Shown here: piece after piece, positions 17,954 to 18,760 of the stretch
How positions within the stretch are numbered: position 1 is the first letter of the stretch
Layout: the number at the start of each line of letters is the position of its first letter
From: Escherichia coli
Lineage (GTDB): Bacteria; Pseudomonadota; Gammaproteobacteria; Enterobacterales; Enterobacteriaceae
Direction: 5' to 3' (one strand)
DNA length: 64,000 nucleotides
NCBI RefSeq assembly: GCF_003334255.1
Contig: NZ_QOWU01000021.1
Notes under the pieces: model-generated
Told to the model about the DNA's origin: nothing
The model's database searches: none
The model's input: the letters and a program-made list of their open reading frames with translations, nothing else
Made by a program: the position numbers and the translations under genes

Positions 17954-18502
17954 TTACCACTCCCAGACTTTCGACGGTGTAACCACCGCAGGAAGAGGGA
18001 TATCCCACTCTTCAACGGGGAGTTTTTCCACCAACTGACAATCATGCGCATAACCCACCGGTTGCGTTTTATAGTGCTGCCAGTTTTGTAAGGTCCGATC
18101 ATAAAAACCACCGCCCATTCCCAGGCGCTGACCGTACTCATCAAAGGCGACCAGCGGTGTGATCAGCACGTCTAATCGGGAAAGGGGTAGCACGTCACGC
18201 ACATCCAATTTTGGCTCATGGATCTTCAACCTGTTCATCACCAGTTCGCTTTGCGGATGGTAATTCAGGAACAGCAAATTACCGGCACTAAAGGGATGCA
18301 AAACTGGAAGATATACGCGCTTACCGGCGCGCCAGAGTTGTTCTATGAGTGGCTGGGTGTCGAGTTCGCCATCAAAAGAGAGGAATACAGCGACCGTATG
18401 TGCCATCACCACCGGGGGATAAGTCATCATCCGGGTAGCGGCTTGTTGACCCATTTCCTGCTGTTGTTCCGGCGTTAACGCACGACGACGTTGCCGAATC
18501 AT
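17954..18502 (-). CDS. ygfA: 5-formyltetrahydrofolate cyclo-ligase
   Basis: ORF 17954..18700 trimmed to MIRQRRRALTPEQQQEMGQQAATRMMTYPP...; ATG verified at 18502; the ORF's N-terminal extension overlaps 6S RNA and is not coding. Confidence 0.93.
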   Translation of the reverse strand: MIRQRRRALTPEQQQEMGQQAATRMMTYPPVVMAHTVAVFLSFDGELDTQPLIEQLWRAGKRVYLPVLHPFSAGNLLFLNYHPQSELVMNRLKIHEPKLDVRDVLPLSRLDVLITPLVAFDEYGQRLGMGGGFYDRTLQNWQHYKTQPVGYAHDCQLVEKLPVEEWDIPLPAVVTPSKVWEW

Positions 18503-18574
18503 TTTGCGGATTTCTTGTCGGGATAATGTCAGTGGGAGTTCTGGTAGTTGCGTCATGGCTGGTGCCAGATAAGA

Positions 18575-18760
18575 AGGGAATCTCCGAGATGCCGCCGCAG
18601 GCTGTAACCCTTGAACCCTTGGTTCAAGGTGAATGTGTCGTCGCAGTTTTAAGGCTTCTCGGACGGACCGAGCATGCTCACCAACCGCGGAGCGCCACAT
18701 TCTTGTGGTATGAAATATCGGCTCAGGGGACTGGCCCGCTTGCGAACATCTCAGAGAAAT
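18575..18760 (-). ncRNA. ssrS: 6S RNA (RNA polymerase-sigma70 regulator)
   Basis: Minus strand reads ATTTCTCTGAGATGTTCGCAAGCGGGCCAGTCCCCTGAGCCGATATTTCATACCACAAGAATGTGGCGCTCCGCGGTTGGTGAGCATGC...CATCTCGGAGATTCCCT, which I recognise as E. coli 6S RNA; directly upstream of ygfA. Confidence 0.93.

What the first reader, a model, noticed from the sequence alone, without database searches (positions are those of the whole stretch)
17954..18760. 6S RNA and ygfA form one transcription unit; the track's ygfA N-terminal extension is artefactual
The 248-aa ORF in the track extends ygfA upstream into the 6S RNA gene. The true ygfA start is ATG 18502, and 18575-18760 is the ssrS RNA on the same strand. This is a good example of a non-coding RNA masquerading as coding sequence in a longest-ORF track.
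Basis: partly seen in the sequence, partly recalled or inferred. Interest (0 to 1): 0.25.

Follow-up and report, generated by a model that had tools for sequence, protein, structure and literature searches.

The report
6S RNA gene upstream of ygfA

Summary
The window is E. coli. On the minus strand lie zapA, ssrS (6S RNA, 18760..18577; Rfam 139.8 bits, full length) and fau/ygfA (stop at 17954). The 248-aa ORF (18700..17954) exists and overlaps 6S by 124 nt. Its extension is an artefact: the 6S part shows no codon periodicity, 71 of 77 related 6S genes carry a stop in that frame, and the 6S-to-ygfA spacing falls in all three frames. Published work already reports co-transcription of ssrS and ygfA, with Rho-dependent termination inside ygfA.

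The claim that the true start is ATG 18502 is not supported. That is the curated K-12/Swiss-Prot call (182 aa); RefSeq PGAP uses ATG 18556 (200 aa). In 79 Enterobacteriaceae loci the 18556-type ATG is present in 79/79, and the 18502 codon is ATG in only 12/79. The seven codons before 18502 evolve as coding sequence. Pfam and TIGRFAM profiles begin 6 residues upstream of that Met. An Arg that the 182-aa form lacks is present in 129 of 131 diverse homologues.

Verdict: already known biology. Low interest.

The parts
18992..19020 (-). Candidate distal ssrS promoter (P2) inside zapA: TTGCAA, 17-nt spacer, TAGAGT
   Evidence: Read directly from the sequence. It scores 8/12, below the scan's threshold. 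The existence of a distal sigma70/sigmaS promoter giving a 404-nt precursor is from the literature. The exact position is my inference and rests partly on memory.
18776..18805 (-). Proximal ssrS promoter-like site (P1): ATGACA, 18-nt spacer, TG-n-TAGAGT (extended -10). Its -35 hexamer overlaps the zapA stop codon.
   Evidence: Consensus scan, 9/12 matches plus TG. It ends 16 nt upstream of the mature 6S 5' end. That fits the short 194-nt precursor made from a proximal sigma70 promoter.
18577..18760 (-). ssrS, 6S RNA
   Evidence: RF00013, 139.8 bits, full length. MFE -80.5 kcal/mol, z=-5.6 against shuffles. Annotated as ssrS in RefSeq genomes. Aligns without gaps across 77 Enterobacteriaceae loci.
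18557..18700 (-). Artefactual N-terminal extension of the 248-aa longest ORF: 48 codons, 41 of them inside 6S
   Evidence: No codon periodicity, and a stop in this frame in 71 of 77 related sequences. Three different frames run through 6S in different genera. No Pfam or NCBIfam coverage before residue 52.
18517..18576 (-). C-rich, G-poor stretch (C 38%, G 13%) spanning the 6S-fau spacer and the first fau codons; candidate Rho utilisation region
   Evidence: Composition; the whole CDS is C 26%, G 26%. Rho-dependent termination within ygfA is stated in the literature. Assigning this stretch as the rut site is my inference.
17954..18556 (-). fau/ygfA CDS, 5-formyltetrahydrofolate cyclo-ligase, 200 aa plus stop; best-supported start is ATG 18556
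   Evidence: PGAP annotation. NF007661 447 bits; TIGR02727 positions 1-182 of 182 covered only by this form. PF01812 positions 1-186 of 186 begin at residue 13 of this form. The ATG is conserved in 79/79 loci. Coding signature upstream of 18502. Family-wide Arg17.
18500..18502 (-). Internal Met19 codon.
   Evidence: Annotation. The homologous codon is ATG in only 12 of 79 loci and otherwise encodes Leu, Gln, Val, Phe, His, Thr, Ile, Ser or Tyr. It is not conserved as Met in 131 homologues.

Best explanation
The locus is the classical E. coli ssrS-ygfA(fau) dual-function transcription unit.

Transcription starts at promoters just upstream of ssrS and, for the distal promoter, inside zapA. RNA polymerase reads through the 184-nt 6S RNA gene, and the mature RNA is cut out of the precursor. 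With no intrinsic terminator present, polymerase continues into fau. Most transcripts are ended by Rho within the first part of fau. The rest serve as mRNA for 5-formyltetrahydrofolate cyclo-ligase.

The enzyme is translated from the ATG at 18556, 20 nt after the 6S 3' end, giving a 200-aa protein. Its N-terminal helix carries the family's conserved Arg/Lys13 and invariant Arg17.

The 248-aa ORF is a chance open frame across the 6S gene that exists only in Escherichia. The 182-aa annotation starts at an internal Met that happens to occur in Escherichia and a few other lineages.

Shown here: the 6S identity, the non-coding nature of the ORF extension, conservation of the upstream ATG, and the coding signature upstream of 18502. 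Taken from the literature: co-transcription, the two promoters, precursor processing and Rho termination. Inferred: the C-rich stretch at 18517..18576 is the Rho loading region, and the absence of a Shine-Dalgarno sequence keeps fau translation weak, which would favour Rho termination.
For: 6S: RF00013, 139.8 bits, full length. Fold z=-5.6. Annotated ssrS in all RefSeq records inspected. Present upstream of ygfA in 9 of 10 sampled genera.

Artefact: flat codon-position variability 0.013/0.040/0.026 and stops in 71 of 77 sequences. Spacer length mod 3 = 28/26/24.

Start at 18556:
- An in-frame ATG, nearly always ATG-ACN, is present in 79/79 loci. It lies 15-29 nt after 6S in 72 loci, 99-125 nt after it in 6, and the 6S end could not be placed in one (L068).
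- The codon homologous to 18502 is ATG in only 12 of 79, and no other locus has GTG or TTG there.
- Codons -7..-1 before 18502 have variability 0.12/0.03/0.41, against 0.08/0.06/0.49 for codons +1..+9. Arg(-6) is invariant across 6 synonymous codons and Arg(-2) is invariant.
- PF01812 and TIGR02727 begin 6 residues upstream of Met(18502); TIGR02727 scores 180.6 against 172.3 bits.
- Solved homologues 1ydm, 1sou, 2jcb and 3hxt align from residues 12-14 of the 200-aa form.
- In 131 diverse homologues Arg17 is Arg in 129, position 13 is Arg or Lys in 105, and 130 have an N-terminus at or before position 13.
- In L068 the stop of an inserted upstream gene overlaps this ATG (ATGA), giving a 200-aa ORF.

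Transcription unit: no terminator-like or promoter-like site between 6S and fau, and a promoter-like site with extended -10 at 18805..18776. Literature statements on co-transcription, two promoters and Rho termination within ygfA. C 38%/G 13% directly after 6S.
Against: - No experimental mapping of the Fau N-terminus or initiation site was found. The key papers (Chae 2011, Lee 2013, Kim & Lee 2004) could not be read.
- The curated K-12 reference and Swiss-Prot use 18502. I do not know their reasons.
- Neither ATG has a Shine-Dalgarno sequence (-1.5 and -0.7 kcal/mol), so ribosome-binding signals do not discriminate between them.
- The first ~11 residues after ATG 18556 are poorly conserved.
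- Gene-caller start choices in the homologue set are themselves predictions, although the residue conservation does not depend on them.
- Assigning 18517..18576 as the rut region rests on composition alone.
Confidence: 0.87

Rival explanations
1. One reading: fau is translated only from ATG 18502 (182 aa), and 18503..18576 is untranslated leader between 6S and fau.
For: This is the start in NC_000913.3 b2912 and in the Swiss-Prot representative 5FCL_ECOLI. The 182-aa form still scores far above the family cut-offs: NF007661 426 bits, TIGR02727 172 bits. The sequence upstream of 18502 is A-rich.
Against: The homologous codon is a non-start codon in 67 of 79 species. The seven codons upstream show third-position wobble with invariant Arg residues. 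Pfam and TIGRFAM profiles start 6 residues upstream. The product would lack Arg17, which is present in 129 of 131 homologues. No Shine-Dalgarno sequence (-0.7 kcal/mol).
Confidence: 0.05
2. Both ATGs are used in Escherichia. The 200-aa enzyme is made from 18556, and a shorter 182-aa isoform is made by internal initiation at 18502. The short form may be inactive or regulatory.
For: The ATG at 18502 is present in all Escherichia loci and in a few Citrobacter and Pseudocitrobacter loci. Neither site has a Shine-Dalgarno sequence, so neither is clearly favoured by ribosome-binding signals.
Against: Met at this position is not conserved (12 of 79). That argues against a selected second start; a Met codon inside a helix is common by chance. 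The short form lacks an invariant residue. No data support internal initiation.
Confidence: 0.08
3. The 248-aa ORF is a real protein: fau is translated from ATG 18700, inside the 6S gene.
For: The frame is open in Escherichia, and this form has been deposited in GenBank genome annotations.
Against: The frame has a stop in 71 of 77 related 6S genes, with no codon periodicity. The frame relation between 6S and fau varies among genera. No profile coverage of residues 1-51. The stretch is a full-length structured 6S RNA. No Shine-Dalgarno sequence.
Confidence: 0.005

Closest known systems
E. coli K-12 ssrS-ygfA (fau) dual-function transcription unit (b2911-b2912), as described by Hsu et al. 1985 and Chae et al. 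2011 and cited
   Same: It is this locus. Over window 17700..19200 the sequence differs from MG1655 at one base (17745), which lies outside both genes. Gene order is zapA-ssrS-fau-sibC/ibsC-serA. The literature reports co-transcription, two promoters and Rho-dependent termination within ygfA.
   Different: Nothing biological differs. The only point at issue is which start codon is assigned to fau: 182 aa in NC_000913.3/Swiss-Prot, against 200 aa in PGAP and in my analysis.
5-formyltetrahydrofolate cyclo-ligase / MTHFS family (Pfam PF01812, TIGR02727; solved structures 1ydm, 1sou, 2jcb, 3hxt)
   Same: Full-length profile matches. Alignable to solved bacterial and human enzymes from the N-terminal helix to the C-terminus. 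The N-terminal R/K-x-x-[LI]-R motif is conserved.
   Different: Enterobacterial proteins carry a variable tail of 10-12 residues before the conserved helix. Enzyme activity was not tested here.
The zapA-ssrS-(ygfA) neighbourhood conserved in gamma- and beta-proteobacteria
   Same: 6S lies directly after zapA and directly before ygfA, with ygfB-pepP transcribed divergently, as described and seen here.
   Different: In some Enterobacteriaceae the tight 15-29 nt junction is loosened. Klebsiella and Raoultella have 99-125 nt, and one species has a gene inserted upstream of ygfA.

Membership tests
6S / SsrS RNA (Rfam RF00013) | Covariance-model score at or above the curated gathering threshold, over the full model | tested here: met
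   139.8 bits against 46.4, model positions 1-187/187, E=3e-29; repeated on the whole window.
6S / SsrS RNA (Rfam RF00013) | Long, largely double-stranded rod with a closing stem, a central bubble and a terminal stem-loop | tested here: met
   The CM alignment keeps the consensus helices with two non-standard pairs. MFE -80.5 kcal/mol, z=-5.6, 0 of 200 shuffles fold as well.
6S / SsrS RNA (Rfam RF00013) | Binds the sigma70 RNA polymerase holoenzyme and templates pRNA synthesis | not testable with these tools
   Established for the same E. coli RNA in the literature. Not tested here.
6S / SsrS RNA (Rfam RF00013) | Evolves as RNA rather than as coding sequence | tested here: met
   Gap-free alignment of 77 sequences. 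Variability by position in the overlapping ORF frame is 0.013/0.040/0.026, and 71 of 77 have a stop in that frame.
5-formyltetrahydrofolate cyclo-ligase (PF01812 / TIGR02727 / NF007661) | Profile score above the curated cut-off | tested here: met
   NF007661 447.1 bits (cut-off 343). TIGR02727 180.6 bits (cut-off 84.9). PF01812 162.2 bits, E=1.7e-47.
5-formyltetrahydrofolate cyclo-ligase (PF01812 / TIGR02727 / NF007661) | Complete domain, including the N-terminal helix with the conserved R/K-x-x-[LI]-R motif | tested here: met
   Met for the 200-aa form: profile positions 1-182 and 1-186 are covered, Arg13 and Arg17 are present, and Arg17 is Arg in 129 of 131 homologues. Not met for the 182-aa form, which starts at profile position 8 of TIGR02727 and lacks both residues.
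5-formyltetrahydrofolate cyclo-ligase (PF01812 / TIGR02727 / NF007661) | ATP-dependent conversion of 5-formyl-THF to 5,10-methenyl-THF | not testable with these tools
Papers call the E. coli protein putative or predicted.
ssrS-ygfA co-transcription unit with Rho-dependent termination | Same strand, short spacer, with no intrinsic terminator and no promoter between RNA gene and CDS | tested here: met
   20 nt separate the 6S end (18577) from ATG 18556. No terminator-like or promoter-like site lies between them. The spacing is 15-29 nt in 72 of 79 related loci.
ssrS-ygfA co-transcription unit with Rho-dependent termination | A transcript that physically joins 6S and ygfA, with Rho-dependent 3' ends inside ygfA | not testable with these tools
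   Stated in the literature. Here there is only a compatible C-rich, G-poor stretch: C 38%, G 13% at 18576..18517.

The most novel reading that the evidence does not exclude
The curated K-12/Swiss-Prot start of fau is wrong by 18 codons. The real initiation codon sits 20 nt from the 6S 3' end, inside the C-rich stretch where Rho would load. Ribosome loading on fau, Rho termination and 6S 3'-end maturation would then compete on the same ~60 nt of RNA. Translation initiation at an ATG with no Shine-Dalgarno sequence would set the ratio of 6S RNA to Fau enzyme. The start-codon part is very likely (about 0.9). The probability given here is for the competition mechanism, which is speculative.
Probability: 0.3. 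Interest if true: 0.3.

Novelty: already known. Interest (0 to 1): 0.1.

Why it matters
It matters little for biology. The 6S RNA gene, its linkage to ygfA and their co-transcription have been in the literature since the 1980s and are in every reference annotation.

There are two practical points:
- The 248-aa artefact is not only a feature of a longest-ORF track. It has been deposited in public genome annotations.
- Three different N-termini for one E. coli enzyme circulate in databases. The one used by the K-12 reference and Swiss-Prot (182 aa) probably removes a near-invariant arginine of the family.

Anyone expressing recombinant E. coli Fau, or interpreting Rho termination 'within ygfA' relative to the translated region, should use the 200-aa form.

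Tried and rejected
- Literature on the primary experiments. Chae et al. 2011 (PMC3012964), Lee et al. 2013 (PMC3887979) and Kim & Lee 2004 (PMC534622) are not held. Promoter and termination coordinates therefore come from secondary citations and from reading the sequence.
- Experimental evidence on the ygfA start codon. The search found 8 papers and none addressed it.
- Literature on the role of the N-terminal Lys/Arg of MTHFS. One search matched too broadly, one search found nothing relevant, and one search gave zero hits. The functional role of Arg13 and Arg17 (phosphate/ATP binding is my recollection) is therefore left as inference from conservation.
- Shine-Dalgarno strength as a discriminator. 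Both ATGs are equally poor, -1.5 and -0.7 kcal/mol against a background mean of -2.67, so this was uninformative.
- Intrinsic terminator after fau. A hairpin follows the stop codon (17953..17931), but it has no T-run and its fold is unremarkable, z=-0.78. The terminator-like hit at 18127..18112 lies inside the CDS, and the number of hits is no more than the shuffles give.
- The 99-125 nt insert in Klebsiella and Raoultella as a possible inserted terminator or promoter. No such site was found in L040.
- My intermediate statement that 'ATG18700 is Escherichia-only' was corrected. The ATG triplet itself is conserved in 76 of 77 sequences as part of the 6S sequence. What is Escherichia-only is an open frame from it into fau.

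Full report
**What is there.** The window is Escherichia coli. Window 17700..19200 is 100% identical to several commensal strains. It differs from MG1655 at a single base, 17745, which lies outside the features discussed. On the minus strand the order is:
- zapA, 19131..18802
- ssrS, 18760..18577
- fau (formerly ygfA), ending at 17954
- SibC RNA, 17928..17778, with the ibsC toxin on the opposite strand

serA lies on the plus strand at 16333..17565, and ygfB-pepP are transcribed divergently from zapA.

**Checking the observation.**
- The ORF list contains the 248-aa ATG ORF at 17954..18700(-), exactly as described.
RF00013 (6S/SsrS) matches 18577..18760(-) at 139.8 bits against a gathering score of 46.4, covering all 187 model positions (repeated).
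- The RNA folds into the expected long rod, at -80.5 kcal/mol. The z-score against dinucleotide shuffles is -5.6, and none of 200 shuffles fold as well.
- The ORF overlaps 6S by 124 nt.

**Is the N-terminal extension an artefact?** Yes. I fetched 80 ygfA loci from one-genome-per-species Enterobacteriaceae.
- 6S aligns without a single gap across 77 of them, giving 38 distinct sequences.
- In the 41 codons of the E. coli ORF that lie inside 6S, variability by codon position is 0.013/0.040/0.026, with 8, 6 and 10 variable sites. There is no third-position excess.
- 71 of the 77 sequences have a stop codon in that frame. Only Escherichia keeps it open.
- The spacer between the 6S 3' end and the ygfA ATG has lengths that fall evenly into the three frames (28/26/24). 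Different genera therefore read through 6S in different frames.
- No protein profile covers residues 1-51 of the 248-aa product.
- The artefact is not confined to a longest-ORF track. The 248-aa protein has been deposited in GenBank genome annotations.

Two in-frame ATGs follow 6S: 18556 (200 aa) and 18502 (182 aa).
- The curated MG1655 record NC_000913.3 uses 18502: b2912 is 549 bp. So does the Swiss-Prot representative 5FCL_ECOLI.
- RefSeq PGAP uses 18556: 603 bp, WP_000192748.1.

Five independent lines favour 18556.

1. *Conservation of the ATG.* In 79 loci an in-frame ATG, almost always ATG-ACN, is present in 79 of 79. It lies 15-29 nt after 6S in 72 loci and 99-125 nt after it in six Klebsiella/Raoultella-type loci; in L068 the 6S end could not be placed. 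The codon homologous to 18502 is ATG in only 12 of 79. Elsewhere it is a Leu, Gln, Val, Phe, His, Thr, Ile, Ser or Tyr codon, and never GTG or TTG.
2. *Coding signature.* The seven codons just upstream of 18502 (S-R-Q-x-I-R-x) have variability by codon position of 0.12/0.03/0.41. The undisputed codons +1..+9 give 0.08/0.06/0.49, which is indistinguishable. Arg(-6) is invariant while using six synonymous codons. Arg(-2) is invariant with two.
3. *Profile boundaries.* Pfam PF01812 (positions 1-186 of 186) and TIGR02727 (1-182 of 182) both begin six residues upstream of Met(18502). The 182-aa form loses the first seven TIGR02727 positions and 8 bits.
4. *Solved homologues.* Structures from Bacillus, Aquifex and human align from residues 12-14 of the 200-aa form. 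Human Lys10 and Arg14 correspond to E. coli Arg13 and Arg17.
5. *Family-wide conservation.* Among 131 near-full-length homologues drawn from 50%-identity clusters:
   - Arg17 is Arg in 129; the other two are gaps.
   - Position 13 is Arg or Lys in 105.
   - Position 19, the contested Met, is mostly Gln, Thr, His or Ala.
   - 130 of 131 have their N-terminus at or before position 13.

One further case supports this. In Superficieibacter electus a 325-aa gene has been inserted upstream of ygfA. Its stop overlaps the 18556-type ATG (ATGA), giving exactly a 200-aa ORF.

Two things do not help. Neither ATG has a Shine-Dalgarno sequence: -1.5 and -0.7 kcal/mol, against -7.8 for zapA and -9.6 for pepP. 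I also found no experimental mapping of the N-terminus. Use of 18502 as a minor second start in Escherichia cannot be excluded.

**The transcription unit.** This is published. 'E. coli 6S RNA is transcribed together with ygfA', and the arrangement is conserved in gamma-proteobacteria. There are two promoters, a proximal sigma70 promoter and a distal sigma70/sigmaS promoter. They give 194-nt and 404-nt precursors that are processed to the 183-nt RNA. [quoted passage not shown]

The sequence fits this picture:
- A promoter-like site with an extended -10 (ATGACA, 18-nt spacer, TG-n-TAGAGT) lies at 18805..18776.
- No promoter-like or terminator-like site lies between 6S and fau.
- Only 20 nt separate 6S from ATG 18556.
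- The 60 nt after 6S are C 38% and G 13%, against 26% and 26% for the whole gene. That is the composition expected of a Rho loading region.
- A second TAGAGT, with TTGCAA 17 nt upstream, at 19020..18992 inside zapA is a plausible distal promoter. This is my reading of the sequence, not a tool result.

If the start is 18556, the presumptive Rho loading region is translated sequence rather than leader. That would set weak fau translation against Rho termination. This is an inference and is untested.

**Comparison with what is known, and novelty.** This is the reference locus itself, so it is already known. The only added value is curatorial. The 182-aa K-12/Swiss-Prot model likely removes a near-invariant arginine, and the 200-aa PGAP model should be preferred.

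**Verdict.** An ordinary, well-described locus, with low interest (0.1). Confidence in the overall reading is about 0.87. The remaining doubt is almost entirely about whether 18502 is also used in E. coli.

Noticed in passing
window 17778..17928 (-), with ibsC on the + strand inside it: A full-length SibC antitoxin RNA (RF00113, 133.8 bits) starts 26 nt after the fau stop codon on the same strand. No convincing intrinsic terminator lies between fau and it. RefSeq annotates the ibsC toxin gene opposite it.
   Followed up: partly
window 18526..18852 (+): A 108-aa ORF runs antisense across the whole 6S gene and the zapA-ssrS junction. It is a second longest-ORF artefact caused by the same RNA gene.
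   Followed up: no
window 19690..21228 (+): The longest ORF for pepP is 512 aa from a GTG and overlaps the 3' end of ygfB. The annotated pepP is 1326 bp (441 aa). It would start at ATG 19903, which has a strong Shine-Dalgarno sequence (-9.6 kcal/mol). This is the same kind of N-terminal over-extension. The ygfB longest ORF (19293) is also 2 codons longer than the annotated 579-bp gene.
   Followed up: partly
L068 152..1129 and 1126..1728 (Superficieibacter electus): A 325-aa ORF is inserted directly upstream of ygfA, and its stop overlaps the ygfA ATG (ATGA). No 6S RNA was found within the 1200 nt upstream, unlike in the other nine loci sampled. Where ssrS lies in this species was not determined.
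   Followed up: partly
L038, L039, L040, L043, L047, L052 (Klebsiella, Raoultella and relatives), e.g. L040 1026..1150: These genera have 99-125 nt between the 6S 3' end and the ygfA ATG, against 15-29 nt elsewhere. The insert in L040 has no promoter-like or terminator-like site. Its origin is unexplained.
   Followed up: partly
public protein databases: Three N-termini for the same E. coli enzyme coexist: 248 aa in GenBank-deposited genomes (seen on at least 1000 contigs), 200 aa in the RefSeq MULTISPECIES entry, and 182 aa in 5FCL_ECOLI.
   Followed up: yes
window 18776..18781 and 18992..18997 (-): The proximal ssrS promoter-like site and the candidate distal one inside zapA share the same unusual -10 hexamer, TAGAGT.
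   Followed up: no
window 32271..32348 (-) and 4664..4706 (-): Two further Rfam matches elsewhere in the window: naRNA4/CssrE (75 bits) and ES036/CssrF (47.3 bits).
   Followed up: no
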